Shown piece by piece: positions 8,833-28,977 of a stretch of DNA of 32,000 bases. Below the pieces are notes generated by a model. It worked only from the letters and a program-made list of their open reading frames with translations. It was not told where the DNA came from and did no database searches. A program made the position numbers and the translations under genes. Origin of the DNA: a virus. Lineage: Duplodnaviria > Heunggongvirae > Uroviricota > Caudoviricetes. Positions within the stretch are counted from its first letter, which is position 1; each line of letters opens with the position of its first letter. Where the stretch lies: the IMG/VR virus record IMGVR_UViG_3300046542_000616, one strand, 5' to 3'.

Positions 8833-9531
8833 ATGGCTGAAAAAATAGAAGTGTCCAAGATCGACAAAACAAGCAAGACCGGCACCTACATCGACATCGA
8901 GAAAAAGGACGGCAAGTTCTTCGCTCAGGTGACCGATGTGATCGAGGGTGAGCGTCAGCCAACCCGCCGCGCTTTCCTGGACGTGATCGGTCAGGGCGAA
9001 AAGGCCTTCATGACCATCAAGGCGCCAATGCGTGAAGTGGACGAAAACAAACAGTTCCTGACACGCGCCAAAACGAAAGACGGCAAGTTCCTCAACGCCA
9101 AGGGTGCTGAAGTGGCCACTGAGGCAGAAGCGGCTCGTGAATACGTCTATAAGACGCAGCGCGATGACGCAACCAAAGTGGTCTACGGCCAGATCGCCAC
9201 GATGAACGTGCAGAACTACAAGAGTGACAAGGTCACCTTGAACGCGTTCACCACCTTCAGCGTGAAGCTCTTCAGTGATGAAGAAGCCCTGGCGGCTGAG
9301 CGTCACGTTTACAGGCTGACTGCGGTGAGGGCCAAGGAGAAGGAAGCAGGCATTTTTGTTGAAGGTCATGACAGCGAGGAGTGCAAGGCCATCAGCGACG
9401 AGATCAAGAAGGTGCGCAAGGAAACCGGGCGCTACGAAAGCTTCTTCATCAATAAGGGCGCTGACATCCTGCGTGAGATGGGCTTCTCGATCCGTGATCG
9501 TGAGCCAAAGGCAGAGCCGACCCCGAGCTGA
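8833..9531 (+). CDS. hypothetical Lys/Glu-rich protein (232 aa)
   Basis: Plus-strand ORF ending at a plus-oriented terminator (9557-9585). The 267-aa antisense ORF is judged a shadow. Confidence 0.75.
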   Translation: MAEKIEVSKIDKTSKTGTYIDIEKKDGKFFAQVTDVIEGERQPTRRAFLDVIGQGEKAFMTIKAPMREVDENKQFLTRAKTKDGKFLNAKGAEVATEAEAAREYVYKTQRDDATKVVYGQIATMNVQNYKSDKVTLNAFTTFSVKLFSDEEALAAERHVYRLTAVRAKEKEAGIFVEGHDSEECKAISDEIKKVRKETGRYESFFINKGADILREMGFSIRDREPKAEPTPS

Positions 9532-9556
9532 TCGGCCTGGCGACACGCCTATAAAG

Positions 9557-9585
9557 AGGGGATCTGGTTCAGATTCCCTTTTTTG
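9557..9585 (+). terminator. rho-independent terminator
   Basis: GGGGATCT-ggttc-AGATTCCC (one mismatch) followed by TTTTTTG. Confidence 0.7.
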
Positions 9586-9606
9586 CAGAAAATCATTTAA
9601 AATGTA

Positions 9607-9636
9607 TTGACACTAGAGTATGCCATCCGTATACTC
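9607..9636 (+). promoter_or_regulatory. class-1 operator/promoter of ssb copy 1
   Basis: TTGACA-N17-TATACT. The palindrome GAGTAT-N9-ATACTC (9616-9636) spans the spacer and the -10. Confidence 0.75.
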
Positions 9637-9703
9637 GTAACCGTTAGCTGATGAAAACCAATCAGCGGCACCAAATCCAACGCGAGGAAACACGAACATG
9701 AAC
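9618..9703 (+). repeat. promoter/leader repeat, copy 1 (86 nt)
   Basis: By eye, identical to 10727..10813 except for one inserted base in copy 2 (GGCAC-CAAATCC versus GGCACACAAATCC). Confidence 0.9.
9647..9666 (+). promoter_or_regulatory. 5' leader hairpin of ssb copy 1
   Basis: GCTGAT-gaaaacca-ATCAGC in the roughly 56-nt leader. It is conserved in copy 2. Confidence 0.5.
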
Positions 9704-10198
9704 CGATTCATTGCCGCAGGCAACCTGGCCAAGAACGCCACCATCCACACCAACACCGCTGGTGACCGTGATTTCATGGCACTGACCATTGCCTGCAACG
9801 ACGGCAAGAACAAAGACGGCACCCCGCGTCCTGCTGAGTTCGTCGATTGCACCATCTGGGGCAAAAAAGGCCAGTTCGACAAGTCCGTCGATTACTTCTC
9901 TGTCGGTCAGCCAGTTCTGGCCATCGGCAAGTTGGTCTACCCGCCAGTGACCGACAAGAACGAAAAGGACGGCGTGGTTTACCAGAGCGCCCTGCTGGAA
10001 ATCGCCAACCAGTTCGACCTGCAACTGACCGGCAGCAAGAACGCTACCGTCGCCAATGCCGGCGATGACGCTCCACAGCGTGACGCAGGTTCTGCACAAG
10101 CCGGTGCCGCTGGTGTGCAGCAAGCGGGCAACCAGCCAGCGCCTCAGCCGGCCCCCGATTTCGACAGCTTTGATGATGACATTCCATTTTCGCGATAA
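9698..10198 (+). CDS. ssb: single-stranded DNA-binding protein
   Basis: OB-fold N-terminal pattern, a Gly/Gln/Pro/Ala-rich linker and an acidic tail FDDDIPF followed by SR. GAGGAA RBS. Confidence 0.9.
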   Translation: MNRFIAAGNLAKNATIHTNTAGDRDFMALTIACNDGKNKDGTPRPAEFVDCTIWGKKGQFDKSVDYFSVGQPVLAIGKLVYPPVTDKNEKDGVVYQSALLEIANQFDLQLTGSKNATVANAGDDAPQRDAGSAQAGAAGVQQAGNQPAPQPAPDFDSFDDDIPFSR

Positions 10199-10231
10199 GT
10201 GAAAGGCTTTTAATAACATAAAAGCATAACC

Positions 10232-10260
10232 CAACCGGCTTAGGCCGGTTGAGTTTTATT
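10232..10260 (+). terminator. rho-independent terminator after ssb
   Basis: CAACCGGC-ttag-GCCGGTTG followed by AGTTTTATT. Confidence 0.85.
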
Positions 10261-10277
10261 CGGAAATAGGTGACGAC

Positions 10278-10634
10278 GTGACGCCAATTGACCAAACCAA
10301 GACCCTAGAAGAAGGTTTAAGGGGTAATTGCCTAGCTGCTTCGGTGGCAAGTCTTTTTGATGTGTCTCTGTCGGACGTTCCCAGCTTCGAAGAGATGTCA
10401 GATAGCGACTGGAAGCCGGCGCTGGAAGGCTGGGCCCTGGGTTTTGGTAGAAAACTGGTCAAGAAGCGGCCTGGAGACTTTACGGTCGATGAGCATTACA
10501 TTGCCATTGGACTCTCTGATCGAGGCAATAAGCATGCTACGGTCGGCCTCAATGGTCGGATTGTTCATGATCCTCACTTCATGCGCCTGGGGCTGGCACA
10601 GGTCGTTTGCCTTTACACCTTCGAGCCAGTCTGA
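10278..10634 (+). CDS. hypothetical protein (118 aa) with a possible Cys/His pair
   Basis: GTG start with GGTGA upstream. GNCLAASVASLF and later HATVGLNGRIVHDPH loosely resemble a papain-fold Cys-His arrangement, which is speculative. Confidence 0.6.
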   Translation: MTPIDQTKTLEEGLRGNCLAASVASLFDVSLSDVPSFEEMSDSDWKPALEGWALGFGRKLVKKRPGDFTVDEHYIAIGLSDRGNKHATVGLNGRIVHDPHFMRLGLAQVVCLYTFEPV

Positions 10635-10745: not shown

Positions 10746-10813
10746 GTAACCGTTAGCTGATGAAAACCAATCAGCGGCACACAAATCCAACGCGAGGAAA
10801 CACGAACATGAAC
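10727..10813 (+). repeat. promoter/leader repeat, copy 2 (87 nt)
   Basis: Near-identical to 9618..9703, differing by one extra base. Confidence 0.9.
10756..10775 (+). promoter_or_regulatory. 5' leader hairpin of ssb-like copy 2
   Basis: The same GCTGAT-N8-ATCAGC hairpin as copy 1. Confidence 0.5.
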
Positions 10814-11185
10814 AAAGTACTTTTGGCAGGTCTGGTGGTAAAAGCCGGTGAAATGCGTTCCGTGAGCGACACTCAGGACGTGGTGAACTTCACCCTGCTG
10901 ACCTCCGACAGCTACACCGACAAGGAAGGTCAGCATCAGGAAAACACTCAGTTCCACGATTGCTCCCTGTTCACCGCGAAAGGCAAGGCCGGCAAGGTCA
11001 CCGAGATGCTGAACAAAGGTCGCGTCCTGGAGCTGGAAGGCAAGCTGAAGACTGGCCAGAAGCGCAAAGGCACTACTCGCGCCGGCGTTGAAAAAGAGTT
11101 CGTCAACAAGGGCATCATCGTCAACGACATCATCAAGTGGGGCTCCAAAGGTGGTGCCGCTCAGGCTGACACCGCTGCTGCATAA
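10808..11185 (+). CDS. SSB-like OB-fold protein lacking the acidic C-terminal tip
   Basis: MNKVLLAG...VVNFTLLTS...DKEGQHQENTQFHDCSLF...GRVLELEGKL follows the SSB OB-fold pattern. It ends ...AAQADTAAA with no DDDIPF. The start is set by the conserved leader, because the upstream ATG at 10760 is out of frame in copy 1. Confidence 0.8.
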   Translation: MNKVLLAGLVVKAGEMRSVSDTQDVVNFTLLTSDSYTDKEGQHQENTQFHDCSLFTAKGKAGKVTEMLNKGRVLELEGKLKTGQKRKGTTRAGVEKEFVNKGIIVNDIIKWGSKGGAAQADTAAA

Positions 11186-11690: not shown

Positions 11691-12017
11691 ATGATGAACA
11701 CTGCCCAGAACGAACTGACTAGCGGCATTGCGCCGGAGCACTTTCATTTACTGATGGTCGGCACCTCGATCCGAGGTAAGGAAGTGAAGCTGGCTTTAGA
11801 AGAACACCTGGTTCGCGGCACGCCAAAGAAAGAAGCGTGCGCAATGCACGGCGCGAACTTCAGTCAATTCTCGAGTCGACTGGGTGCACTCCGTGATGAA
11901 TACGACCGTACCTCGCGGATGGCTAAGTTTTACAGCCCGCTGCTTCTGTTGCTGAGTAAGCCAATCGGCGGCATTTTGAAACAGCATGCAGTAACCAGCG
12001 CCTTGCCAAGCGCTTAA
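11691..12017 (+). CDS. PapB/FaeB-family transcriptional regulator
   Basis: HFHLLMVGTSIRGKEVKLALEEHLVRGTPKKEACAMHGANFSQFSSRLGAL parallels PapB (FFLLIGISSIHS...DYLVGGHSRKEVCEKYQMNNGYFSTTLGRL). GAGGAA RBS before ATGATG. Confidence 0.7.
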   Translation: MMNTAQNELTSGIAPEHFHLLMVGTSIRGKEVKLALEEHLVRGTPKKEACAMHGANFSQFSSRLGALRDEYDRTSRMAKFYSPLLLLLSKPIGGILKQHAVTSALPSA

Positions 12018-12047: not shown

Positions 12048-12530
12048 ATGGTGTACCGAATGACATTGTCGATAGCGCAAAAGACGCAACTGATTCAGTC
12101 GTATGGTTTCCAGCTCCTGGAACGCGAGCCTGACTTAAAGGTGGATCTGGTCGGTGGGTTTATGATCAAAGACCCTAACGATACGTCAGTCGGATCCTGG
12201 GTGGTTATGGGGGATAACCAGGAAGCGCTTTTGAACACCGCCATCGAATGTCATGAGATGACGCATTACATGCATGGTGAGTGGGAGCACATCTTTGTAG
12301 AAGGTAAGTCCGCAAGAACTTGCCGGCTGTTGTTGGATACGGTCGATCAGCGCGTGCTCTGCGCCCAGGTGCAGAATGGGGAGGCCTGGGAGCCCGTGAG
12401 CCGGGATGGCGTTGAGGATATTCTGGAGAGCCTTAATCACAACGACGTCTGGTCAGACAAAGAGTTGTGGGATGATTTTGAGAAAAGTAACGAACGACCA
12501 CTCTGGGCAGAGGCTTATTTGGCTGCCTGA
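12048..12530 (+). CDS. hypothetical acidic protein (160 aa)
   Basis: Long ORF after the regulator gene, followed by a terminator. The start is uncertain between 12048 and 12060. Confidence 0.7.
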   Translation: MVYRMTLSIAQKTQLIQSYGFQLLEREPDLKVDLVGGFMIKDPNDTSVGSWVVMGDNQEALLNTAIECHEMTHYMHGEWEHIFVEGKSARTCRLLLDTVDQRVLCAQVQNGEAWEPVSRDGVEDILESLNHNDVWSDKELWDDFEKSNERPLWAEAYLAA

Positions 12531-12807: not shown

Positions 12808-13191
12808 ATGTCGAACACTCAAACTAAAGTACAAGAACTGCGCGCACTGGAAGCTGCTCTGGCTGAAATCACCGCCAAGCGTGACGCACTGAAACCTCAG
12901 GTTGATACTCAACTGGAAGTTTTCAAGCAAATGGCCGATCTTTGCGATTCGAAAGGCATCTCCCGCCGCGACATGGCCCTGGAACTGTGCCCAGAACTGG
13001 CTCAAGGTTTCCGTACTCAAGCCACCGGCGACAAGAAAACCCGCCGCGCTCGCATGGTGAAGATGTACAAGAACCCGAACAACGGTGAAATCATCGAAAC
13101 CAAGGGTGGCAACCACAAGGCCCTGAAAGCCTGGAAACAGCAGTACGGCGCTGATACTGTTGAAGGCTGGTTGGTAAACGCCGCCGCTTAA
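12808..13191 (+). CDS. MvaT/MvaU-family (H-NS-like) nucleoid-associated protein
   Basis: The C-terminus MYKNPNNGEIIETKGGNHKALKAWKQQYG matches the MvaT DNA-binding signature YKNPHxGExIETKGGNHKxLKxW. The N-terminus is coiled-coil-like. GAGGA RBS. Confidence 0.9.
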   Translation: MSNTQTKVQELRALEAALAEITAKRDALKPQVDTQLEVFKQMADLCDSKGISRRDMALELCPELAQGFRTQATGDKKTRRARMVKMYKNPNNGEIIETKGGNHKALKAWKQQYGADTVEGWLVNAAA

Positions 13192-13255: not shown

Positions 13256-13501
13256 GTGAATATGAAGATCATGGACATAGCCAAAACCGATGTGAAGCAA
13301 AACGCAGCCCTGATGATCGGGCTTTCGCTGCTTGTGGGTGTCCCTGATGTCGCCCTGGCAGGCGCAGCCTACCTCGCCATTGGCACCCATGGGCTGTTGG
13401 CCTATGCCGGCCTGGTGCTTACCGGTGGTATTGCGGTGGCCTGTGTGGGTGCGCTGGTGGTGTATACCGGCGAGCTGTCGAAAAGCCGGATTCCAGAATA
13501 G
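13256..13501 (+). CDS. small membrane protein (2 predicted TM segments)
   Basis: Hydrophobic stretches AALMIGLSLLVGV and LLAYAGLVLTGGIAVACVGALVV. Start is either the GTG at 13256 or the ATG at 13262. Confidence 0.6.
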   Translation: MNMKIMDIAKTDVKQNAALMIGLSLLVGVPDVALAGAAYLAIGTHGLLAYAGLVLTGGIAVACVGALVVYTGELSKSRIPE

Positions 13502-13564
13502 ACCGCCTGGTCATTTATGAGTTTATTGCTCATCGAGCAATACGCGGTACGTCAGGGGAATGCA

Positions 13565-13774
13565 ATGAACACCGATCAGGATAGCCATAACTGCCCTGAG
13601 CACCTGCAGGCGCTGGAGTTTGACGTGGTGAGATTCATCATGCACGGGGCCAAAAGCGGCCAACACCGTAAGCTGGTTACGCTCCTGGAAAGCACCCAGG
13701 AAGCGTTCCCCGGATGCAGTGAGGCGTTTATTCGTCAATGTATAGAAAAGGTTGGAGCGTCACTGTGTGAATAG
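13565..13774 (+). CDS. hypothetical protein (69 aa)
   Basis: GGGGA lies 5 nt upstream of the ATG at 13565. The track start at 13517 lacks an RBS. Confidence 0.5.
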   Translation: MNTDQDSHNCPEHLQALEFDVVRFIMHGAKSGQHRKLVTLLESTQEAFPGCSEAFIRQCIEKVGASLCE

Positions 13775-13937
13775 AGCCCTACGTCGCGCCAAGGTACTGG
13801 CCGAGAAGCGCCTGGCCGGGCAGCCCGATCCGAATGAGCCGTGCCTGGCTTGCAGCGGGTCGGGACACTACGATCACCACCGCAGTCCAGCGTGCAGTGC
13901 CTGTAACGGCTCAGGGAAGCGACATCAACCTCGTTGA
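13767..13937 (+). CDS. mini zinc-finger protein with two CxxCxGxG motifs
   Basis: CLACSGSGH and CSACNGSGK resemble the DnaJ Cys-rich repeat. The GTG start overlaps the preceding stop. GC-rich third positions. Confidence 0.45.
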   Translation: MNRALRRAKVLAEKRLAGQPDPNEPCLACSGSGHYDHHRSPACSACNGSGKRHQPR

Positions 13938-14285: not shown

Positions 14286-14591
14286 TCAGTGAACGCTATT
14301 GCCTTGCGGCATGCCCAGCTCCTGGGTCGCGTACTGGAACATCTCGACCGCTTCGTCGTAGAGGTTTTTTGAGTACAAAAACGGCGCATTATGCGTTGGG
14401 CCGCCTTCGGCAAAGAAACGATTCAAGCCAGATAACTTGCTGGTGTCGACCACGGGCCGTTTCATGTAGCAGCGAACAAAGCCGAAATTGAATGGCTCGA
14501 ACTTGGCGTTATCAAAGGCCATGTGGCGCATGATCCGCTCGATTGAGCCGCGTGGAGGTTGCACGGAGGTTTGAGAGCTGGGCTGCTGCAT
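14286..14591 (-). CDS. hypothetical protein (101 aa)
   Basis: GGAG lies 7 nt upstream of the ATG at 14591 (MQQPSSQ...). Confidence 0.65.
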   Translation of the reverse strand: MQQPSSQTSVQPPRGSIERIMRHMAFDNAKFEPFNFGFVRCYMKRPVVDTSKLSGLNRFFAEGGPTHNAPFLYSKNLYDEAVEMFQYATQELGMPQGNSVH

Positions 14592-14636
14592 GTTGAACTC
14601 CAAGATGCCGAGAGCCCCGGCACCGTCGATAATTTG

Positions 14637-15155: not shown

Positions 15156-15169
15156 GCTGAACTGTCAGG

Positions 15170-22813: not shown

Positions 22814-22946
22814 GGAGTCGGTATCCTTTCATGTTGGCTTGAGGGTTTGGCCTAATGCCGCCTCGTTATGGAGTGGAGAATAGACCATTGATACTCCCAT
22901 GTCGAGTATGAGGCACTCTAAATACGGTGGTCTTGGCTGAAGGCAG

Positions 22947-22971
22947 CAAAAAGCCCCTGCGCGAGGGGCTT
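22947..22971 (-). terminator. rho-independent terminator
   Basis: On the minus strand: AAGCCCCT-cgcgc-AGGGGCTT followed by TTTGCTG. Confidence 0.85.
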
Positions 22972-22988
22972 GTTGTTGAAGAAAGGGG

Positions 22989-23441
22989 TCACGCCACCGC
23001 AGAGAGCCGGGTCGAGGGGATGAACTGAATGATCCGATCACCCAGTGTGCTTTTCGCCATCTCTTTGGCAATCAGGTAGTTTTCTAGGTCTTGATCACAA
23101 AGCTGCTGATAACCAAACCAGCCTTCACAGGCTTCCACACCGGCCTCATAGGCGATGCGCTCAGCTTCCGACCCCTGCTGAACCTTGACGAACACAAAAC
23201 CCTGTCCGTCTTCCTGACCAAAAGCCACTTGAGCGATGCAGGAACCTTGCTTGGCTTTTCTGATTTTGCACTCGTCGAAGCCAACAGAATCGTCGACACC
23301 ATGCAGGAAGGCACTGACTTCAGCGTACGTCTCGAAACTGAAGGTCTTGACGTCGTTGAGGACGTGGATGTTCTGGAGGCCGTCTTGCTCGAACATTTTG
23401 ACCGAATCAGCGGAGAAGATGACGCCGATGGTGATGCTCAT
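22989..23441 (-). CDS. acidic ORFan (150 aa), paralog of the N-terminal domain of 20088..20795
   Basis: AAGGA RBS. Conserved blocks are listed under 20088..20795. Confidence 0.7.
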   Translation of the reverse strand: MSITIGVIFSADSVKMFEQDGLQNIHVLNDVKTFSFETYAEVSAFLHGVDDSVGFDECKIRKAKQGSCIAQVAFGQEDGQGFVFVKVQQGSEAERIAYEAGVEACEGWFGYQQLCDQDLENYLIAKEMAKSTLGDRIIQFIPSTRLSAVA

Positions 23442-23498
23442 GATAATTCCTTTTGTGAAGTGGTGGCTCGGTCTGGCAGGGCGCGATTGTGATGTAGG

Positions 23499-24023
23499 TT
23501 ACTGAACAACCTCAAGCGGTAGCTCATACATTGGGAGTGTCATGCAAGGGGTCTGGTAAATCCGCATCACGACCTTTCCTCCATAGACCTCGATGGCCAC
23601 GAAATTGTCCTTGCACATCTCACGAAATTTGAAGGTTCGAGAAGCCGTGAATTTGAGTTTGATGCACACGTCAGCACTGAAGCCGCCTTCAACGACCTCC
23701 ACCCGGTGGTCAACGTGAAAAATAACCGTGTCCTGGCTTGGCCCGCCGACCCTGTAGTAATCGAACGATGCGTTCAACGCCTCATCGTGTTTGCGGTATC
23801 TCAAGTAAAGGGCAGGGTCGTAAAAGCTGAAGGCGTAGCGCTCTCCTGTACGCATCAGCACCTGTCGAACGGGTCGACTGTAGAGGTAGGTGCCAAACAC
23901 GGTGTCAGGATCGCTTGCGATGCTTTTGGCAGACGCTCTCTCTCGCTGCAGCGTATGGCCACCCATTGAATAGAAGTGCGGTTCTTGTCCTGGTTTTTGA
24001 AAGACTGAAGTGAAGTGGCTCAT
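23499..24023 (-). CDS. hypothetical protein (174 aa)
   Basis: GGGGGA lies 6 nt upstream of the ATG. Confidence 0.7.
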   Translation of the reverse strand: MSHFTSVFQKPGQEPHFYSMGGHTLQRERASAKSIASDPDTVFGTYLYSRPVRQVLMRTGERYAFSFYDPALYLRYRKHDEALNASFDYYRVGGPSQDTVIFHVDHRVEVVEGGFSADVCIKLKFTASRTFKFREMCKDNFVAIEVYGGKVVMRIYQTPCMTLPMYELPLEVVQ

Positions 24024-24051
24024 GGTCTATCCCCCGGTCTGATCAGTTGGA

Positions 24052-24633
24052 TTACTTCGACGCGGCTTCAAAATCTGCCTTCATAAGCGGGTTCACCCAC
24101 TCGGCGTAATCCAAGTGTTCCGGGCAGTTCTCGCGAGGGTAGCCGTCTACCTCAAAACCGTCGCACTTCTCCATGAATTCAAACATCGGGTGGCCAACGT
24201 GGCTGGCAATCTCGTTGAGCAGGGACAGCGATTCCTGATTGAAGCCAATGGTCTTGTCAGCGACCAGCGTAATCCCCTGTAGCAAGTTCTTGACCATGAC
24301 CTTGAAGCGGTCTTGCGGTTCTTCGCCGGGTAGCAGCGTGACAAAATCACCTGCAAGATGGGTTTCATTCTTGTAGTCATTGGCTGGCTCACCCTCGACC
24401 TGGATCACCGGGTAAACGCCATAGTACAGGCCGTCGAGGTCTTGAACCTGGATGTCAGAGATCATCTGATTAGGCGTACCAGACACTAGGCTGTAAGCCA
24501 CCATGCCTTGGCGGTAAAGGTCAGGGAGGTGCAGATCGTTGGCTGCGCGAGCGGCTTGCTCGGGCGAATTGGCAAGAATGCCACTGATGGCAAAACGAAC
24601 GGTCTGGAAAACATCGACATTGTAGTGCTTCAT
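24052..24633 (-). CDS. hypothetical acidic protein (193 aa)
   Basis: ATGA overlap with the upstream gene. Confidence 0.7.
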   Translation of the reverse strand: MKHYNVDVFQTVRFAISGILANSPEQAARAANDLHLPDLYRQGMVAYSLVSGTPNQMISDIQVQDLDGLYYGVYPVIQVEGEPANDYKNETHLAGDFVTLLPGEEPQDRFKVMVKNLLQGITLVADKTIGFNQESLSLLNEIASHVGHPMFEFMEKCDGFEVDGYPRENCPEHLDYAEWVNPLMKADFEAASK

Positions 24634-25007
24634 TGTGCATCACCTTCAGACGACTTGGCCTGAGTGCCGCCCAGCATGCGCTGACGGTGCTTGAGGAAGT
24701 TTTCGCTGGACTGAGCGTTTTTCTGGAGCCGCTCCTGCTCATGCTCCGCTTCAGTCTGTACTTCGCCTTCCAGGCCGAGTTCTTTGACCAGCTTGTCCAG
24801 GCCAGACCACAGGCGCAGGATCTGGTACTTGTCCATGCTGGCACAGCCGGTGATTTTTCGCTTGTCCGAACCGAGGCGAGTGGCCTCCACGATCATGCTG
24901 GGTTCGCCTTCATTCATGAACAATTTGAACGAAAGGTCGTCGCCAAGGAGCAACCTTTCCTTGGCAATGTCGGGGATGCAAGCGAACGGTACAGTTTTAT
25001 CGGACAT
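24630..25007 (-). CDS. hypothetical protein (125 aa)
   Basis: AGGAG lies 6 nt upstream of the ATG. First gene after the class-1 promoter at 25022-25062. Confidence 0.7.
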   Translation of the reverse strand: MSDKTVPFACIPDIAKERLLLGDDLSFKLFMNEGEPSMIVEATRLGSDKRKITGCASMDKYQILRLWSGLDKLVKELGLEGEVQTEAEHEQERLQKNAQSSENFLKHRQRMLGGTQAKSSEGDAQ

Positions 25008-25021
25008 GATCGACTCCTTTA

Positions 25022-25062
25022 CGGTATGCGTGCAGTATACTGTTAAGGAGTCTAGGGGGCAA
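25022..25062 (-). promoter_or_regulatory. class-1 operator/promoter
   Basis: On the minus strand: TTGCCC-N17-TATACT. Palindrome CGGTAT-N9-ATACTG (25022-25042). Confidence 0.65.
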
Positions 25063-25086
25063 ACTAATTTGGCGGTTTACTGCAAA

Positions 25087-25326
25087 TTACTTAAACAGCG
25101 CCGGGCGTTTGTGAGCTTCCAGTGCAGCCCGGTGCACGTCACTGCCACGAGCAGCCTTGAGCCGCACGTATTGCTCAGCATCTACGTCGCATTCAAATCG
25201 ACCCTTGGATGCATCGCGCACGATCATCACCTTTCCGGCAAAGGCGCCGGAGCTTTGAGGCTGCAGGTTCCAGCCTTCCGATTGGCCGGTGTGGTTTAGA
25301 CTGGAGAGGCATACGGTTTTAAGCAT
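25087..25326 (-). CDS. hypothetical protein (79 aa)
   Basis: ORF lies 10 nt downstream of the preceding gene. Weak RBS. Confidence 0.55.
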   Translation of the reverse strand: MLKTVCLSSLNHTGQSEGWNLQPQSSGAFAGKVMIVRDASKGRFECDVDAEQYVRLKAARGSDVHRAALEAHKRPALFK

Positions 25327-25336
25327 TGGGGTTCAC

Positions 25337-25678
25337 TTAAATCAGAGGTTTTGGCGGCTGGTGGTTGCAGGCAATGCCGCTGTCATTCATCAGTGGGTGG
25401 AAGCTTTTGATCTCGCGGCCACAGACTGGGCAGCACGGGGTCTTGTCTGAGGTGATGCCGTCCGTGGGCACCAGATAGGTTCCTCTGGAGCTTCCACCGA
25501 CTTTCACGCGAATTTGCTTAATCAGCTTTTTCTTCAGCAGAGCCTGAAGCTCTGGCGATTGCTTGATGATCGGCGTGTGGCTCCGGTTCACCCGAAAGCC
25601 AAAATTACCGGGATGTGCACGAAAGCGAACCAGCTCAAGGGCCAGGGCTCGACGCTGCGTGTTGTTCAGAACTTTCAT
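25337..25678 (-). CDS. hypothetical basic protein with a C-terminal Cys cluster (113 aa)
   Basis: CCPVCG...C.H suggests a zinc ribbon, and the basic N-terminal half may bind DNA. This is inference. Confidence 0.65.
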   Translation of the reverse strand: MKVLNNTQRRALALELVRFRAHPGNFGFRVNRSHTPIIKQSPELQALLKKKLIKQIRVKVGGSSRGTYLVPTDGITSDKTPCCPVCGREIKSFHPLMNDSGIACNHQPPKPLI

Positions 25679-25797
25679 CGGTAGGCCTCATGCCATGCCA
25701 CCAACTCTAAATGAGATGAGTGGCTAATTGATATTGCGAAGTCTATGAAAATTAACGATAAATTGAAAGTTAATTACGAAAAATTGTCAGCCGTTGG

Positions 25798-26625
25798 TCA
25801 GGCTGCCACTGAGGAGTTCGCCCCCTTCGCGTAGCGGCCTCGACCGACCCGGCGCGTCCTGATCTGGCAGATCTTGCGCACCTGTTCTTTCCAGTTAGGG
25901 TTATCGGTAGGGCGCCGGTCGCTCACGTACTCGTAGATCTGCGGCAAGTCGGCTTCACCGCCGAAGGTATCCAGAGCTTCCAAGACCAGCTCCGGCCATG
26001 TCGACCGACCGTGCACCAAGGCCTCTTGGACGTCCTCTGGCAATTGGCTGATAAAGGCCTGCTCATGGAATAGGCTAAAGCCAACAAGCAGGCGCTGAAC
26101 GTCCTTGCGAAAGATAGCAAAGCACAGCGGCTTCTCAAGGCCGGGGTAGATGTTGCGCGGGATCATTTCCTGGTACAGGCTCCACCGCTCGTTGTAGCGC
26201 GATACACGGCTGGCTGTCTGGAAGAAATACGTCGGCAGGATCATGCCCACACGTCCATCCATCGCCATCGCTTGGTCAGCCTTGGCCAGGAACAGGTCAA
26301 ACAAAGCGGTCTTGAACGGCGGGTTGCCGATAAACAGCGTGGGCTGGCCGGGGATCACGACGTCACGAATGTCGCCGGTGATGATCTGGCGTCCCGAGCG
26401 CTCTCGGGCGATCTGTGCCTGCACAGGATCGATCTCAATGCCAAAGGCTGGCACATGGGTCGGTATGGCCTCCAGAAAGCGCCCAGGGCCGCACATGGGC
26501 TCGCACACCAGATCATTGGCCGTCAGGTCGCTGAAGTGTTTGCGCACCAGTGCCTCAGCCACCCATGCGGCGGTGAAGTACTGATCGAGCTGCCGGGTCT
26601 TGGTGCAGGGAGTCGAAGGTTTCAT
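25798..26625 (-). CDS. N6-adenine DNA methyltransferase (gamma-class motif order), no adjacent restriction gene recognised
   Basis: AdoMet motif I EPMCGPGRF lies about 55 aa before catalytic motif IV NPPF. QYFT near the N-terminus. ATGA overlap with the upstream gene. Confidence 0.9.
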   Translation of the reverse strand: MKPSTPCTKTRQLDQYFTAAWVAEALVRKHFSDLTANDLVCEPMCGPGRFLEAIPTHVPAFGIEIDPVQAQIARERSGRQIITGDIRDVVIPGQPTLFIGNPPFKTALFDLFLAKADQAMAMDGRVGMILPTYFFQTASRVSRYNERWSLYQEMIPRNIYPGLEKPLCFAIFRKDVQRLLVGFSLFHEQAFISQLPEDVQEALVHGRSTWPELVLEALDTFGGEADLPQIYEYVSDRRPTDNPNWKEQVRKICQIRTRRVGRGRYAKGANSSVAA

Positions 26626-27290
26626 GGCTGCCCCTTGGCCGCTTCGCGGGCATCGTGCTTTAGGTCGCTGACCTTCATCATGAAGTACACATCAAACTCA
26701 GGCGGCATAGGAAACATCGTGCCTTTAGGCCCGGCGCAGCCCATGCAGACTTCCGACTTGAGCACCATGAATTCTTCCAGTGTTTTGACTGCTTCAAGTC
26801 GCGCTGCAATGTGCTCTCTGAAATATACCTGGCTCGCACGGTGGGCCTGATCGGTCGCAGCGGCCAGACCGGCCAGCGTGGTCAGATCAAATTCACGATT
26901 GGCGACCCGCTTGAGCAACTCGTCGCGTTTTTCCGCCAGGTCTTCGGCGCGTAGATCAACCTCGTACTCGCCGCGCTCTTTAAAGCGAAGCACATCCCCC
27001 TCGACAGTGATGGTCGGCACATCATGGCCAGGATGCGCCAGAGCGAAAGCTTGCCGATACTGCTCGATCAGTTCTACTGGATTGTGATGGCTCTTGGATC
27101 GCTGAAGCAGGGTGTCACGCATTTGCGCCAATGCTGCTGCACGGAGTTTTTTCTGAATGGCGAACATCCCGAACGAATACCGATACCAGCCCTGATGGAA
27201 TTCAATGACGGGCAGGGGTGCATCCGGGTTAACGCGGCGAAACGCCGAGAGGTAGCTTTCAATCAGTTCTGCGGGGGATTGTCTGGACAC
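26622..27290 (-). CDS. hypothetical protein with an internal tandem duplication (222 aa)
   Basis: AAGGAG lies 6 nt upstream of the GTG at 27290. The module (S/N)P.ELIE.Y..AF...P...P.I occurs twice. Confidence 0.7.
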   Translation of the reverse strand: MSRQSPAELIESYLSAFRRVNPDAPLPVIEFHQGWYRYSFGMFAIQKKLRAAALAQMRDTLLQRSKSHHNPVELIEQYRQAFALAHPGHDVPTITVEGDVLRFKERGEYEVDLRAEDLAEKRDELLKRVANREFDLTTLAGLAAATDQAHRASQVYFREHIAARLEAVKTLEEFMVLKSEVCMGCAGPKGTMFPMPPEFDVYFMMKVSDLKHDAREAAKGQP

Positions 27291-27300
27291 GGGTTGCTCC

Positions 27301-27996
27301 TTAACCGAGGTTGCCAAAAGTCTGCATGTCCCAGCCTTCCGGGCCGATGGCGGCAAATTTGTTCACAAAATCACTGATCGGCGTCGGGTAATCCGAAACT
27401 TTCAACACTAACCCGATCTCAAGGACGGTGTGGACGCAATGATCAAATTCATCGTCATACCGATCATCGTCGACAGAAGGGCAGAGCGCATCCAGATCAA
27501 CCTGCAAAGGGAGAAAATCATCGCTGCCTTCATCGCGAAGCAGATTATCAGCAATGATTTTTAGCTGCGCAACGCTGATAGCCCCAGGAAACACCACTTC
27601 GCTATCGGACTTGTAGTTAGCGCCGTCGCGGTACTGGTAGATCAGTCGCGTATTGGCTGCTGGATTACCGGCAAGCGCGGAGAACGATTTCAGGTTAATG
27701 ATGTGTGTCGAGTCTTCAAGGCTTGTGGCTATGTCGCGTACGGCGATCATGCCTGGCAGGCACGCCAGTGAAAGCTCACCAGAGCTTGACTCAATGACCG
27801 GAAATTTGATGGAAGTGAATGTGAACGCTAAATGCCGAGATGTCAGCGACTGAACAAAGCATTCTTCTTCATCTGGATTTTCAATGACACTGATCACACC
27901 AGTCTGTACGTCAACCGTGCACGCTCTGACGATGGTTTTGCCACCATCCCATAGGGACACTAATTCAGCGTGGATGGGGAGGGTAGAGAGTGACAT
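27301..27996 (-). CDS. hypothetical acidic protein (231 aa)
   Basis: GGAG RBS. First gene after the class-1 promoter at 28011-28051. Confidence 0.7.
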   Translation of the reverse strand: MSLSTLPIHAELVSLWDGGKTIVRACTVDVQTGVISVIENPDEEECFVQSLTSRHLAFTFTSIKFPVIESSSGELSLACLPGMIAVRDIATSLEDSTHIINLKSFSALAGNPAANTRLIYQYRDGANYKSDSEVVFPGAISVAQLKIIADNLLRDEGSDDFLPLQVDLDALCPSVDDDRYDDEFDHCVHTVLEIGLVLKVSDYPTPISDFVNKFAAIGPEGWDMQTFGNLG

Positions 27997-28010
27997 GACA
28001 AGCTCCTTTT

Positions 28011-28051
28011 CGGTATGTTTGCAGTATACCGTAAATTGCCATAAGTGACAA
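28011..28051 (-). promoter_or_regulatory. class-1 operator/promoter
   Basis: On the minus strand: TTGTCA-N17-TATACT. Perfect palindrome CGGTAT-N9-ATACCG (28011-28031). Confidence 0.75.
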
Positions 28052-28078
28052 CTAATGAGCTTGTTTATTGATTAATTG

Positions 28079-28366
28079 TCAGCCGTGGTACGGGCAAGGA
28101 TCACCCCTGCTTTCAAGGCAGCCATCGCAATGGGCCATGTCTTCGCTTTCGCATTCAAGCTGCCAGCCTTCCTTCCAAGAACCCAGGAGGAATGGCGTCG
28201 TGCGAAATAGCGGGGGCACCTCAAGAAAGCTGACATCCAACTGGCAATCCAGTCTGCCAGCGTCAAAGGCCGTGTGCTCGGCCTGGATCTGCATTTCTTC
28301 GTCACCCCAAATCTGTGCCACCTCATGCAGGCGGCGTGCTTCCAGGCAAGCCAGCAAGCTGCTCAT
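28079..28366 (-). CDS. hypothetical acidic Cys-containing protein (95 aa)
   Basis: GGAGG lies 9 nt upstream of the ATG. Confidence 0.55.
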   Translation of the reverse strand: MSSLLACLEARRLHEVAQIWGDEEMQIQAEHTAFDAGRLDCQLDVSFLEVPPLFRTTPFLLGSWKEGWQLECESEDMAHCDGCLESRGDPCPYHG

Positions 28367-28369
28367 GAC

Positions 28370-28588
28370 TTAGGCCCTCCGGTCGTACGGGGTTTTGGCG
28401 TCAGGGGACATCAGGCCGCGCTCAGCCTTGTATTTCATGATCTGCAGGTCGTTGACCATCTCGGCGCACTTGTCGAATTCCTGCTCATAGAGCGGGTTGA
28501 CGCTGTTGGTGGTTTGGTAAGCAGCGTTGACTACGAGGCGCTGGGCGGCAATGTCAGCTTCAAGGGTCATGCGTGTATGCGAGATCAT
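28370..28588 (-). CDS. hypothetical protein (72 aa)
   Basis: GGAG lies 9 nt upstream of the ATG. Confidence 0.55.
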   Translation of the reverse strand: MISHTRMTLEADIAAQRLVVNAAYQTTNSVNPLYEQEFDKCAEMVNDLQIMKYKAERGLMSPDAKTPYDRRA

Positions 28589-28620
28589 GTGGGAAACTCC
28601 GTCGTCTGCTTGATGTGTTA

Positions 28621-28977
28621 TCAGTAGTGCTCATGCCCGGCGCTGATGCCATGATCAAGGAAGGGCCAGCCATTTTTGGTCAGGATACCGGTCACTTCCA
28701 TGAAACCGCCCTTGGGATTCTTCCAGCGCACGTAGTAGCTGCGGTTTGCCGGGGATTCCTCGGCCTCATCCGTCATTACCAAACACTGCCATCCTTCCAC
28801 CGATGCCTTGAAGCCCGCATCATCCAGGCGGTTGAGCGCATAGCGGGCCAGGCGCTGGGCCAGGCCTGCACTGATCTGCTCGCTGGTCAGGTTAAGCCAA
28901 TCGGCCAAGCGTTGGCCCGCCATATTGAAGCGAGGTGGTTGGGCCTTATAGACTTCGGTTTGAATTGCCTGGGACAT
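28621..28977 (-). CDS. hypothetical protein (118 aa)
   Basis: GGTGA lies 5 nt upstream of the ATG at 28977. An alternative ATG is at 28989. Confidence 0.65.
   Translation of the reverse strand: MSQAIQTEVYKAQPPRFNMAGQRLADWLNLTSEQISAGLAQRLARYALNRLDDAGFKASVEGWQCLVMTDEAEESPANRSYYVRWKNPKGGFMEVTGILTKNGWPFLDHGISAGHEHY

What the first reader, a model, noticed from the sequence alone, without database searches (positions are those of the whole stretch)
8833..28977. Block of short ORFan operons under shared operators, flanked by ssb, an orphan methylase and a silencer: candidate establishment or anti-defence island
From 14286 to 28977 all 31 predicted genes lie on the minus strand. They form at least 10 short operons, each with its own sigma70-type promoter. 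I can assign only three of the 31 to a family by eye: an Arc-like regulator, an RHH-like protein and an N6-adenine methyltransferase. Many products are small and strongly acidic, for example 12048-12530, 16195-16737 and 20088-20795. That composition is typical of DNA mimics and anti-restriction proteins. The adjacent plus-strand block (8833-13937) carries two SSB-type genes and an MvaT-like silencer. In established plasmid biology, ssb, orphan methylases and anti-restriction or anti-SOS genes cluster in the first-transferred (leading) region, and a few plasmid-encoded repressors often control such genes globally. The shared operators reported separately fit that picture. I infer that this is a co-regulated arsenal of uncharacterised host-takeover or anti-defence genes. 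Individual operons, such as 22989-25007 and 25798-27996, are candidates for new activities.
Basis: partly seen in the sequence, partly recalled or inferred. Interest (0 to 1): 0.75.

Follow-up and report, generated by a model that had tools for sequence, protein, structure and literature searches.

The report
Co-regulated ORFan block beside megaplasmid transfer genes
This is a stretch of a roughly 1 Mb Pseudomonas conjugative megaplasmid, next to its DNA-transfer machinery, where about 17 promoters share the same repressor-type binding sites and drive two SSB genes, a DNA silencer, a lone DNA methylase and dozens of small proteins of unknown function; a plasmid-establishment or anti-defence role is plausible but nothing here shows it.

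Summary
31 minus-strand genes (14286-28989) form about 10 operons. The plus-strand module (8833-13937) carries two SSBs, a PapB-like regulator and an MvaT/MvaU silencer. Only an Arc/AmrZ-like regulator and a DNA methyltransferase in the minus block can be assigned.

New context: the window belongs to a diverged lineage of the pMPPla107 family of about 1 Mb Pseudomonas megaplasmids. Dot/Icm-type T4SS genes lie 3.5-7 kb left of the window. A conserved, oriT-like 0.9 kb intergenic region lies between them and the window.

The shared operators are real. GTAT-N9-ATAC has 10 exact and 4 one-mismatch sites, all intergenic, against 0.15 exact sites expected. GGTCAG-N5-CTGAC has 3 sites. The first is conserved at orthologous promoters in five relatives but absent from 100 kb of pMPPla107 transfer and replication backbone.

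The ORFans are real genes (dN/dS 0.04-0.5) confined to this lineage.

Against an anti-defence island:
- No known anti-defence family was found.
- The ssb genes and the methylase are on opposite strands.
- Array orientation flips between relatives.
- There are no Frpo-like ssDNA promoters.
- The array continues at least 10 kb past the window.
- 72% of pMPPla107 genes are hypothetical anyway.

Verdict: a repressor-controlled regulon with a probable establishment role; the anti-defence function is unproven.

The parts
8833..9531 (+). First gene of the plus-strand module. It is a 232-aa protein of a small uncharacterised family found upstream of ssb in all pMPPla107-family relatives.
   Evidence: It is 41-47% identical to genes at the same position in pMPPla107, pPL1 and Leaf58. 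Only 27 clusters exist among 1.84 billion representative proteins. A profile search against PDB and Pfam found nothing. A one-mismatch operator A site lies at 8799.
9698..10198 (+). SSB 1, with the canonical acidic C-terminal tip (DFDSFDDDIPF).
   Evidence: Pfam SSB and PHROG 44; NCBIfam ssb models. The tail is visible in the translation. Operator A at 9618-9634 lies in the promoter spacer.
10278..10634 (+). 118-aa protein of unknown function lying between the two ssb genes.
   Evidence: phrog_5845 at 4e-23. It is 45% identical to the gene between the two ssb genes of pMPPla107.
10808..11185 (+). SSB 2, an OB fold without an acidic tail.
   Evidence: Pfam SSB 5.7e-24; TIGR00621 8.5e-16. The promoter and 5'UTR are a 66-nt, 95% identical copy of those of SSB 1 (repeat D3). 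Operator A lies at 10727-10743.
11691..12017 (+). PapB-like transcription regulator; one candidate for binding the operators.
   Evidence: Pfam PapB 2.9e-11 and phrog_10566. A one-mismatch operator A site at 11553 lies in its promoter. It is conserved in L022, L024 and pPL1.
12048..12530 (+). Acidic 160-aa ORFan (pI 4.5).
   Evidence: No family hit. It is 53% and 48% identical in L022 and L024, and dN/dS is 0.18.
12808..13191 (+). Plasmid-borne MvaT/MvaU-family xenogeneic silencer.
   Evidence: Pfam MvaT_DBD 1.5e-21; NCBIfam silencer_MvaTU 1.4e-29, above the cutoff. It is syntenic in all relatives. A sigma-70 promoter lies at 12722-12750 and a terminator at 13206-13230.
13256..13937 (+). Three small genes (81, 85 and 61 aa) that end the plus-strand block. 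The last has a DnaJ-type CxxCxGxG zinc finger.
   Evidence: ORFs and translations. phrog_12902 at 2.9e-11 for 13752-13937. Orthologues are present in L022.
14286..28989 (-). Array of 31 small minus-strand genes in about 10 operons. 28 of them have no assignable family.
   Evidence: Gene calls and intergenic promoter architecture. 28 of 31 are conserved in L022 (55-94% aa) and 22 of 31 in L024. dN/dS is 0.04-0.51. No Pfam, PADLOC or PDB hits except the Arc-like protein and the MTase.
18494..19003 (-). Arc/AmrZ/TprA-like ribbon-helix-helix regulator with a C-terminal extension; one candidate for binding the operators.
   Evidence: Pfam Arc 1.4e-15; PDB AmrZ 3qoq 1.9e-15; NCBIfam conj_TF_TprA 1.8e-9, below the cutoff. 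Its operon promoter carries operator A at 19407-19423 and a second palindrome.
25798..26625 (-). DNA methyltransferase with motif I followed by NPPF. It has no recognisable nuclease partner and is the third gene of the operon 27996 to 25798.
   Evidence: Motifs visible in the translation. PADLOC mad2 and MTase_II; phrog_5172 and phrog_6263. It is the best-conserved gene of the block: 94% and 80% identical in L022 and L024, with dN/dS 0.058. It is 58% identical to the IncP-2 megaplasmid methylase.
20088..20795 (-). The most acidic ORFan (235 aa, net charge -34). Its N-terminal 150 residues are paralogous to 22989-23441.
   Evidence: Charge. The paralogue is 40.5% identical, E 4.6e-37. Only 7 clusters exist among 5.8 billion proteins, all on contigs up to 1.28 Mb. 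The AF2 model is poor (pLDDT 67.5, and below 50 in the conserved N-terminal region) and has no PDB fold match.
17890..18441 (-). 183-aa ORFan with distant relatives in Providencia, Proteus and Pseudomonas plasmids and in phages.
   Evidence: tblastn at 37-38% identity to many plasmids. phrog_3205 and phrog_12524. The AF2 core has pLDDT about 90. No PDB fold match. It matches only uncharacterised phage proteins in BFVD (best E 9.4e-9, TM 0.53).
21452..22297 (-). Tandem paralogue pair (135 and 138 aa).
   Evidence: 32.5% identity, E 8.8e-19; phrog_9342 at 1.3e-22 with 2 stretches.
28013..28029 (.). Operator A, GTAT-N9-ATAC (extended consensus rGTATACT-N6-ATACC), overlapping the -10 and +1 of the methylase-operon promoter. 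Other exact sites lie at 3617, 9618, 10727, 19407, 21390, 25024, 29001, 29084 and 30678. One-mismatch sites lie at 4246, 8799, 11553 and 22878.
   Evidence: 10 exact sites against 0.15 expected, all intergenic. All four one-mismatch sites are intergenic too. Positions relative to -35, -10 and the start codons were read. The site is conserved at orthologous promoters in L022, L024, L029, pMPPla107 and pPL1, and there are none in 100 kb of pMPPla107 T4SS and replication DNA.
15047..15063 (.). Operator B, GGTCAG-N5-CTGACC, filling the -35/-10 spacer. It is also present at 16134-16149 and 17224-17240 and controls the three distal operons.
   Evidence: 3 sites against 0.03 expected. The 71-nt promoter repeat family D2 contains them. 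It is conserved in L022 (4 sites) and L024 (2 sites) but not in pMPPla107 or pPL1.
21432..21453 (.). Upstream palindrome TTTGCAGTAAATTGCAAATT (type D), located 5' of the -35 at many class A and class B promoters. Other copies lie near 3653, 15084, 16171, 17262, 19446, 25067 and 30701.
   Evidence: 13 matches against 0.29 expected; positions read.
29128..30204 (+). Two plus-strand genes that interrupt the minus array: a 182-aa ORFan and an HNH endonuclease.
   Evidence: HNH: Pfam 4e-6 to 6e-7 and PHROG HNH families. The 29128 promoter carries operator A at 29084-29100. A homologue of the 29128 product lies next to the methylase in an IncP-2 plasmid (annotation).
14246..14268 (-). Intrinsic-terminator-like hairpin that ends the minus array. 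Together with 13206-13230 on the plus strand it marks the convergence point.
   Evidence: Terminator scan.

Best explanation
The region is part of a diverged member of the pMPPla107 family of about 1 Mb conjugative Pseudomonas megaplasmids. It starts a few kb beyond the end of the Dot/Icm-type (MPF_I) transfer gene cluster.

Shown. From the nrdB operon to at least 10 kb past the window's right end, nearly every operon starts at a near-consensus sigma-70 promoter whose -10 (TATACT or TAnAAT) is embedded in, or flanked by, a 17-bp palindrome. Operator A is GTAT-N9-ATAC. Operator B is GGTCAG-N5-CTGACC. There is often a further upstream palindrome. The genes under these operators are two SSBs, an MvaT-type silencer, PapB-, wHTH- and Arc/TprA-like regulators, a methyltransferase with no recognisable nuclease partner, and dozens of lineage-specific small proteins that are under purifying selection.

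Inferred. One or two plasmid-encoded dimeric repressors occupy these operators and keep the whole set off in established cells. Candidates are the Arc/TprA-like, PapB-like and wHTH proteins, each of which sits behind an operator A promoter. On arrival in a repressor-free recipient, once the complementary strand has been made, the strong promoters would fire together (zygotic induction). They would deliver ssDNA protection (SSB), self-methylation (MTase), silencing of AT-rich plasmid DNA (MvaT) and a set of host-interaction proteins that may include anti-defence factors. Repressor accumulation would then shut the regulon down.

The establishment role of the ORFans is inference. No individual ORFan function is shown.
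For: Family membership and position.
- Synteny of w5187...w8833-ssb-ssb-papB-mvaT with pPL1, pMPPla107, FeN3W and Leaf58.
- DotG/TrbI, DotH and DotI lie in the left flank at L026 3069-6448, that is 3.5-7 kb left of window base 1.
- The layout is identical in the 0.95 Mb relative.
- The window's own protein is on a contig of 1.28 Mb.

Regulon.
- Operator statistics.
- Promoter anatomy.
- 44 operator A sites across the lineage, with conserved half-sites and variable spacers.
- Operator A is conserved upstream of ssb x2 and mvaT in pMPPla107, and upstream of the nrdB operon and ssb x2 in L029. There are none in 100 kb of pMPPla107 T4SS and replication DNA or in the IncP-2 locus.

Genes are real.
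- dN/dS is 0.04-0.51 against L022.
- 28 of 31 minus-block genes are conserved in L022 and 22 of 31 in L024.

Precedents.
- SSBs and orphan MTases are the commonest non-anti-defence families in leading regions (PMC11541004).
- An MGE-encoded Arc-like factor working with MvaT controls transfer genes in PAPI-1 (PMC8565334).
Against: - No repressor-operator pair is demonstrated. The operators could bind an activator or a host factor.
- oriT and the relaxase are not identified, so 'enters first' is untested.
- The ssb genes and the MTase are on opposite strands, and the ORFan arrays are inverted relative to the T4SS in pMPPla107 and FeN3W.
- No Frpo-like ssDNA promoters were found, so any early expression would have to wait for second-strand synthesis.
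- No known anti-defence family was found.
- The ORFan array is not bounded.
- Hypothetical genes dominate these plasmids: 776 of 1080 in pMPPla107 (PMC3136466).
- ssb and nrdB may simply belong to the plasmid's own replication and 'housekeeping' gene set, which includes dnaE, dnaB, dnaG, dnaQ, topoisomerases and thyA in pMPPla107.
Confidence: 0.5

Rival explanations
1. This is ordinary megaplasmid 'dark matter'. The block is one stretch of the hundreds of lineage-specific hypothetical genes these plasmids carry. ssb, nrdB and mvaT are part of the plasmid's own replication and housekeeping complement. The shared operators reflect a general plasmid-wide homeostatic control that limits expression cost. 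There is no special link to entry, establishment or defence.
For: - 776 of 1080 pMPPla107 genes are hypothetical (PMC3136466).
- The GBE paper describes a 468-gene cargo region with 27 annotated genes.
- The array continues beyond the window.
- pMPPla107 carries dnaE, dnaB, dnaG, dnaQ, topoisomerases and thyA.
- Array orientation is not conserved.
- No anti-defence homologues were found.
- Selection is uniformly purifying, with no gene-wide signature of an arms race.
Against: - Operator A is restricted to this region and is absent from 100 kb of transfer and replication backbone. That points to a distinct regulatory unit rather than plasmid-wide control.
- The position immediately beside the T4SS and an oriT-like conserved gap is kept in every relative examined.
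- SSB together with an orphan MTase is the typical leading-region combination.
Confidence: 0.3
2. This is a canonical leading-region anti-defence island in the sense of Samuel et al. 2024. It would be the first DNA to enter, transcribed from the incoming T-strand through ssDNA promoters, and encode anti-restriction, anti-CRISPR or anti-SOS proteins.
For: - Proximity to the T4SS genes and to an oriT-like conserved intergenic region.
- SSB x2 and an MTase with no recognisable nuclease partner.
- Many small acidic products and three paralogue families.
- If oriT is in the gap left of the window, and given that leading-region genes are transcribed from the incoming T-strand, my own geometric inference is that the minus-strand arrays point toward it, as expected for T-strand-templated genes.
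Against: - The ssb genes are on the opposite strand to the MTase and the ORFans, whereas the study found a single orientation for these classes.
- Orientation flips in pMPPla107 and FeN3W.
- No Frpo-like structures were found. The z-scores are symmetric between strands and are explained by terminators and operators.
- No ArdA, KlcA, PsiB, Ocr or Acr homologues were found.
- The block begins about 14 kb, and more than 20 genes, from the candidate oriT and extends past 41 kb.
Confidence: 0.15
3. This is a phage-derived or defence-type module, such as a prophage early region or a defence island containing an R-M system.
For: - Several ORFans match PHROG families of unknown function.
- The 17890 fold matches only phage proteins.
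- HNH endonucleases and a methylase are present.
- The two fast-evolving genes upstream of the MTase in the same operon could hide a novel nuclease.
Against: - No structural, packaging, lysis or integrase genes were found.
- Two window proteins (20088-20795, 17890-18441) found no relatives in IMG/VR, and there was no phage DNA match.
- PADLOC finds nothing but the MTase.
- The region is syntenic with conjugative megaplasmids.
- The IncP-2 homologue of the MTase is conserved with a Zn-ribbon protein, not with a nuclease.
Confidence: 0.05

Closest known systems
pMPPla107 megaplasmid family (pMPPla107, pBASL58; Baltrus 2011 PMC3136466; Smith 2019 PMC6482414), plus the unnamed relatives pPL1 (P. 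silesiensis) and the Pseudomonas sp. FeN3W plasmid
   Same: The gene order is the same: Dot/Icm-type T4SS, a gap of about 0.9 kb, the nrdB operon, lipoprotein genes, the 8833-like gene, ssb, ssb, mvaT, then arrays of small hypothetical genes. Operator A is present upstream of the ssb genes (and of mvaT in pMPPla107). The contig size is about 1 Mb.
   Different: Only about 40% aa identity. Most of the 31 minus-block genes have no homologue at the corresponding pMPPla107 or pPL1 loci. The ORFan array is inverted relative to ssb. Operator B is specific to the window's sub-lineage. That sub-lineage is known only from metagenome assemblies.
Leading-region anti-defence islands of conjugative plasmids (Samuel et al. 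2024, PMC11541004)
   Same: Adjacent to transfer genes. It contains SSBs, an MTase with no recognisable nuclease partner and many uncharacterised small genes.
   Different: SSB and MTase are on opposite strands. There are no recognisable anti-defence genes and no Frpo ssDNA promoters. Transcription comes from operator-controlled duplex promoters. oriT and the relaxase are unknown. The extent is much larger.
Global repressor regulons of broad-host-range plasmids, e.g. the IncP-1 KorA/KorB/KorC/TrbA network (from my own knowledge; not examined here)
   Same: One palindromic operator is repeated at many strong promoters and overlaps the -10 region, which would allow coordinated shut-down after establishment.
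   Different: The operator sequence is unrelated, and no Kor-type protein or ParB-like KorB is present in the window. The regulon appears to exclude the transfer and replication genes of pMPPla107 (0 sites in 100 kb), whereas the kor regulon centres on them.
TprA-NdpA2-MvaT control of the ICE PAPI-1 (PMC8565334)
   Same: A Pseudomonas mobile element with an element-encoded Arc-like RHH factor acting with an MvaT silencer. The window's Arc-like protein gives a sub-threshold match to the TprA model.
   Different: The match is below the NCBIfam cutoff (38 bits against 150). No NdpA/YejK homologue was seen in the window. TprA is an activator that binds far upstream of one promoter, not a palindrome at the -10 of many.
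IncP-2-type Pseudomonas megaplasmids (e.g. p12969-DIM, pBT2436 family; PMC7070040)
   Same: They share the methylase (58% aa), the adjacent Zn-ribbon protein and a homologue of the 29128 product, all within long one-directional arrays of hypothetical genes. The T4SS is also typed MPF_I.
   Different: There is no other synteny. Operator A is absent. It is a different plasmid family.

Membership tests
Leading-region anti-defence island (Samuel et al. 2024) | Lies within the first tens of ORFs on the leading side of oriT | tested here: inconclusive
   T4SS genes lie 3.5-7 kb left of the window, and a conserved oriT-like 0.9 kb gap lies between them and the window. No relaxase, NikA-like protein or known oriT could be identified, and MOB-suite types the relatives as non-mobilizable. 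Transfer polarity is unknown.
Leading-region anti-defence island (Samuel et al. 2024) | SSB, MTase and anti-defence genes all in one (T-strand) orientation | tested here: not met
   The ssb genes are on the plus strand, while the MTase and 30 ORFans are on the minus strand. The arrays have the opposite orientation in pMPPla107 and FeN3W.
Leading-region anti-defence island (Samuel et al. 2024) | Contains recognised anti-restriction, anti-CRISPR or anti-SOS genes | tested here: not met
   No such family was found in Pfam, PHROGs, PADLOC or PDB sequence searches. AntiDefenseFinder and dbAPIS were not available.
Leading-region anti-defence island (Samuel et al. 2024) | Frpo or ssi-type single-strand promoters upstream of the genes | tested here: not met
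   ssDNA folding of 17 intergenic regions on both strands gives modest, strand-symmetric z-scores. These are explained by terminators and operator palindromes; no long promoter-bearing hairpin is present. There was no sequence comparison with known Frpo elements because none was at hand.
Leading-region anti-defence island (Samuel et al. 2024) | Orphan MTase and SSB present | tested here: met
   SSB x2. An MTase without a recognisable nuclease partner.
pMPPla107-family megaplasmid | Conserved backbone synteny (Dot/Icm T4SS, nrdB, ssb x2, mvaT) and about 1 Mb size | tested here: met
   Contigs of 1.28, 1.13 and 0.95 Mb. aa identity is only about 40%, so this is a distant member.
Plasmid global repressor regulon (kor-like) | One palindromic operator repeated at, and overlapping, the promoters of many operons | tested here: met
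   Conserved across relatives.
Plasmid global repressor regulon (kor-like) | A plasmid-encoded repressor shown to bind the operator | not testable with these tools
   Four candidate DNA-binding proteins lie behind operator A promoters: the wHTH at 3349-3603, the PapB-like, the Arc-like and the putative RHH at 22556-22813. None can be assigned.
N6-adenine/N4-cytosine DNA methyltransferase | AdoMet-binding motif I and catalytic (D/N)PP(Y/F) motif IV; family HMM match | tested here: met
   EPMCGPGRF and NPPF are in the translation. PADLOC mad2 at 5e-10 and MTase_II at 1.7e-6; PHROG DNA methyltransferase. Pfam Eco57I is only 0.083, below threshold. The target base and motif are unknown.
DNA-mimic anti-restriction proteins (ArdA/Ocr type) | Homology or a fold that displays a DNA-like array of carboxylates | tested here: inconclusive
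   No sequence homology. Only 20088-20795 approaches the charge density of mimics (-0.145 per residue). Its model is too poor to judge (pLDDT 67.5) and has no PDB match.

The most novel reading that the evidence does not exclude
The 50 or more lineage-specific small proteins behind operator A and B promoters would form a single zygotically induced programme of a Dot/Icm-type megaplasmid. It would be a repressor-gated arsenal of new anti-defence or host-takeover proteins, with the 20088/22989 acidic family as candidate DNA mimics. Some of these proteins might even be translocated into the recipient through the Dot/Icm-like T4SS. Whether this T4SS secretes proteins at all is an open question raised for pMPPla107 in PMC3136466.
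Probability: 0.2. Interest if true: 0.8.

Novelty: new variant of a known kind. Interest (0 to 1): 0.45.

Why it matters
Megaplasmids of about 1 Mb that move across a whole genus are poorly understood, and about three quarters of their genes have no known function. This analysis turns an amorphous ORFan block into a defined, testable unit. The unit has two conserved operators, about 17 promoters in the window (44 operator A sites across the lineage), four candidate regulators and a position beside the transfer genes and a candidate oriT. If the regulon is induced on entry, it gives a short, ranked list of new protein families to screen for anti-defence or host-takeover activity in Pseudomonas, and a way to switch them all on or off. 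It would also show an establishment strategy based on repressor-gated duplex promoters rather than the ssDNA promoters of F-like and IncI plasmids. If it is not induced on entry, it still defines a family-wide regulatory circuit for limiting the cost of carrying a megaplasmid.

Tried and rejected
- Near-identity DNA searches of 8800-29000 against plasmids and phages found only a 90-bp mvaT match and nothing else.
- IMG/VR scans with two ORFans found nothing, so a phage origin was dropped.
- GTDB genome scans found nothing with the 1-507 product. With the methylase they found only a 45% Mesorhizobium hit.
- A JGI metagenome scan with the 1-507 product found nothing.
- Four look-ups failed because the protein start was guessed wrongly: three NrdB starts and the 242-aa form of 30774-31502. 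One further call had a frame error. The left flank was finally reached through the 1-507 product.
- PDB sequence searches of all block proteins matched only AmrZ.
- PADLOC matched only the methylase.
- Rfam found nothing.
- Structure route: the 17890 model is good in its core but matches no solved fold, only uncharacterised phage proteins. The 20088 model is too poor to use.
- The 8833-family profile against PDB and Pfam found nothing.
- A distant blastn of the oriT-like region against plasmids gave no match, because the conserved blocks are too short for that database size. Pattern searches showed the blocks in pMPPla107 and L029 but not in FeN3W, apart from the GC-rich repeat.
- Frpo-like ssDNA promoters were not found.
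- The convergence point at 13938-14285 was considered as an oriT and rejected. It has z about -0.7 and holds only terminators and a weak ORF.
- The 'defence island' and 'prophage' readings were rejected for lack of any supporting gene.

Full report
**1. What is in the sequence**

ORF listing, codon-position GC and translations give 31 consecutive minus-strand genes from 14286 to 28989. The median product is 122 aa. A plus-strand block runs from 8833 to 13937 and converges on the minus block at about 14.2 kb.

Gene calls on identical metagenome contigs agree with mine gene for gene.

Library searches (I joined proteins with X-linkers so the whole window fitted in one call, then mapped hits back by residue position) assign the following:
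- Two SSBs, a PapB-like regulator and an MvaT/MvaU silencer in the plus block.
- An Arc-like regulator in the minus block (Pfam 1.4e-15; PDB AmrZ 1.9e-15).
- A DNA methyltransferase in the minus block. It has motif I, an NPPF motif, PADLOC mad2/MTase_II hits and PHROG hits.
- Outside the finding, the window holds NrdB, a DUF7448 protein, a small wHTH protein and an HNH endonuclease.

Every other minus-block protein is negative in Pfam, PADLOC and PDB sequence searches. A few match PHROG families of unknown function.

**2. The ORFans are real genes confined to one lineage**

A search of 5.8 billion proteins finds 7 clusters for the 20088 family and 6 for the 17890 family. These lie on contigs of up to 1.28, 1.13 and 0.95 Mb.

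Two diverged relatives were retrieved: L022, on a 1.13 Mb JGI contig, and L024/L029, on a 0.95 Mb ENA scaffold. They keep the same architecture.
- 28 of 31 minus-block genes are present in L022 at 55-94% aa identity.
- 22 of 31 are present in L024.
- Nei-Gojobori dN/dS against L022 is 0.04-0.51, mostly 0.1-0.25.

These are therefore protein-coding genes under purifying selection. There is no gene-wide sign of positive selection, although dS is near saturation.

Three paralogue families exist inside the window:
- 20088 and 22989.
- 21452 and 21881.
- The triple 1855, 2352 and 2858.

**3. What replicon this is**

There is no near-identical DNA in PLSDB or in phage records. tblastn shows that the plus-strand module is syntenic, at about 40% aa identity, with four plasmids:
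- pMPPla107 (972 kb).
- The Pseudomonas sp. FeN3W plasmid (910 kb).
- P. silesiensis pPL1 (1.17 Mb).
- The Leaf58 plasmid pBASL58.

This is the pMPPla107 megaplasmid family. pMPPla107 itself is conjugative across Pseudomonas and both described members are dominated by hypothetical genes (PMC6482414; PMC3136466).

The order in pMPPla107 is as follows:
- rep at 71 kb.
- Replisome genes at 42-53 kb.
- Dot/Icm-type T4SS and type IVb pilus at 87-138 kb.
- nrdB at 142 kb.
- The ssb-ssb-mvaT module at 155-159 kb.
- Arrays of small hypothetical genes after that. The published 'cargo' region starts at about 170 kb.

I reached the window's own left flank through the product of 1-507. DotG/TrbI, DotH and DotI lie 3.5-7 kb to the left. 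They are followed by a DsbA-like gene and an AP2-domain gene, then a 0.9 kb divergent intergenic region, and then the nrdB operon with which the window begins. The 0.95 Mb relative and FeN3W have the same layout.

**4. The shared operators**

Reading all intergenic regions on the coding strand shows a uniform promoter design. Each has a -35 of TTGnCA and a 17-bp spacer to a -10 of TATACT or TAnAAT.

- Operator A, GTAT-N9-ATAC, either overlaps the -10 and +1 or fills the spacer (as at both ssb promoters).
- Operator B, GGTCAG-N5-CTGACC, fills the spacer at the three distal operons.
- An upstream TTGCA..GCAAATT palindrome is often present as well.

Counts against dinucleotide-preserving shuffles:

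| Motif | Observed | Expected |
|---|---|---|
| Operator A | 10 | 0.15 |
| Operator B | 3 sites | 0.03 |
| Upstream palindrome | 13 | 0.29 |

All ten exact operator A sites and all four one-mismatch sites are intergenic. The one-mismatch sites cover the promoters of 8833, papB, 3731 and the 22556 operon. About 17 promoters in the window therefore carry operator A or B.

Operator A is conserved in relatives:
- At the corresponding promoters in L022 (7 sites), L024 (10) and L029 (4, including the nrdB operon and both ssb genes).
- Upstream of both ssb genes and mvaT in pMPPla107, and at four sites in the pPL1 locus, two of them near its ssb genes, despite only about 40% protein identity.
- Absent from 100 kb of pMPPla107 T4SS and replication DNA and from an IncP-2 locus.

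The 44 sites share the half-sites (consensus rGTATACT-N6-ATACC), while the spacers vary. This is a family-wide regulon specific to the region beyond the T4SS. I found no mention of it in the papers read.

**5. Tests of the 'leading-region anti-defence island' reading**

I took the criteria from Samuel et al. 2024.

- *Position.* It is close to the transfer genes. The 0.9 kb gap contains blocks conserved even in pMPPla107: three TTCGGCGCGAAGCGCGGCT repeats, CAAACACAAGATGTAGTG, a hairpin with a compensatory T-A to G-C change, and TCAAATATAAGAACTCCGT. That pattern is what one expects of an oriT. However, no relaxase or accessory protein could be recognised, and FeN3W keeps only the GC-rich repeat. 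Result: inconclusive.
- *Orientation.* The ssb genes are on the plus strand and the MTase and ORFans on the minus strand. In pMPPla107 and FeN3W the arrays after mvaT run with ssb. Result: not met.
- *Known anti-defence genes.* None found. Result: not met.
- *Frpo.* ssDNA folding of 17 gaps on both strands shows only terminator- and operator-sized hairpins. Result: not met.
- *SSB and orphan MTase.* Present. Result: met.

Two further points weaken the 'island' idea. First, the array is not bounded: 26 more small genes without Pfam hits, 25 of them on the same strand, and five more operator A sites lie in the 10 kb to the right of the window. Second, 72% of pMPPla107 genes are hypothetical.

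**6. Individual ORFans**

- 17890-18441 folds confidently in its core (pLDDT about 90). It has no solved structural relative and matches only uncharacterised phage proteins.
- 20088-20795 is the most acidic product (net -34). Its model is poor and uninformative.
- The gene heading the ssb module (8833-9531) belongs to a family of 27 clusters among 1.84 billion representatives. It has no PDB or Pfam relation.
- The MTase is the most conserved gene of the block (94% and 80% identity, dN/dS 0.058). It recurs with the adjacent Zn-ribbon protein and a homologue of the 29128 product in IncP-2 megaplasmids.

**7. Most likely mechanism**

*Shown.* This is a multi-operon regulon with two conserved palindromic operators placed where a bound dimer would block RNA polymerase. 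It sits beside the transfer genes. It contains SSBs, an MvaT silencer, several small regulators, a methylase with no recognisable nuclease partner and dozens of lineage-specific proteins.

*Inferred.* Plasmid-encoded repressors keep the set silent in established hosts, possibly reinforced by MvaT on the AT-rich promoters. Entry into a repressor-free recipient would give a synchronous burst after second-strand synthesis. Such a burst would serve establishment, through ssDNA handling, self-methylation, silencing and host interaction, and possibly counter-defence. I put this at about 0.5.

*Rivals.*
- Generic megaplasmid dark matter under cost-limiting control: about 0.3.
- A canonical T-strand, Frpo-driven anti-defence island: about 0.15.
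- A phage-derived or defence module: about 0.05.

**8. Verdict**

The concrete new result is the operator A/B regulon and its placement next to the T4SS and a candidate oriT in a little-studied megaplasmid family. The anti-defence claim remains a hypothesis with no positive evidence.

Novelty: a new variant of a known kind, namely a plasmid establishment or global-control region.

Interest: 0.45.

Noticed in passing
L026 8753-9671 (window coordinates about -1250 to -330, outside the window): This 0.9 kb divergent intergenic region lies between the T4SS-side genes and the nrdB operon. Several sequence blocks are conserved in the 0.95 Mb relative and in pMPPla107: three TTCGGCGCGAAGCGCGGCT repeats, CAAACACAAGATGTAGTG, a hairpin with a compensatory change, and TCAAATATAAGAACTCCGT. 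It is a candidate oriT for a plasmid family in which no relaxase or oriT is known.
   Followed up: partly
window 1855-3352 (-): Three tandem paralogues (164-169 aa, acidic, about 40% identical to one another) lie behind a small wHTH gene (3349-3603) whose promoter carries operator A. pMPPla107 has a single copy.
   Followed up: partly
window 7157-7673: A 517-nt stretch between convergent genes has no convincing ORF. Its predicted single-strand structure is unusually stable on both strands (z -4.4 and -3.5). There is no Rfam match.
   Followed up: partly
window 9606-9720 and 10715-10830: The two ssb genes share an almost identical promoter and 5'UTR: 66 nt at 95% identity, then 49 nt at 84% running into the first codons. 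The shared segment includes a conserved GCTGAT-N8-ATCAGC hairpin in the leader, although the coding regions are strongly diverged. This suggests gene conversion or selection on a leader element.
   Followed up: no
window 25337-26625 and 29128-29676; L009 14977-16964: The methylase, the adjacent 113-aa Zn-ribbon protein and the 182-aa product of 29128 all have homologues that sit side by side in IncP-2-type Pseudomonas megaplasmids. This may be a functional trio shared between otherwise unrelated megaplasmid families.
   Followed up: partly
window 26622-27290 (-): By eye, the product contains two similar segments of about 45 aa (PAELIESYLSAFRRVNPDAPLPVIEF... and PVELIEQYRQAFALAHPGHDVPTITVE...). 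It overlaps the methylase start codon by 4 nt, which suggests translational coupling.
   Followed up: no
window 13752-13937 (+): A 61-aa protein with two CxxCxGxG motifs (a DnaJ-type zinc finger) matches phrog_12902, a phage family of unknown function.
   Followed up: no
L019 (pMPPla107) and L031 (FeN3W) compared with window, L022 and L024: The arrays of small genes after mvaT run in the same direction as ssb in pMPPla107 and FeN3W. In the window's sub-lineage they run in the opposite direction. This points to an ancient inversion or replacement at this junction.
   Followed up: partly
window 11256-11408 (+): A 50-aa ORF inside the 505-nt gap between ssb2 and papB is called as a gene on the metagenome contigs. 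A 50-aa gene is also called at the same position in L022.
   Followed up: no
whole window: Proteins identical to the window's were found only in metagenome assemblies (JGI 3300046692, 3300047472 and 3300046519; Logan SRR26075506-SRR26077533), and those of its two nearest relatives likewise (JGI 3300046522, Logan SRR26076530 and SRR26190058, ENA ERZ28619262). Two queries found no GTDB species representative and no PLSDB plasmid holds more than a distant relative.
   Followed up: yes
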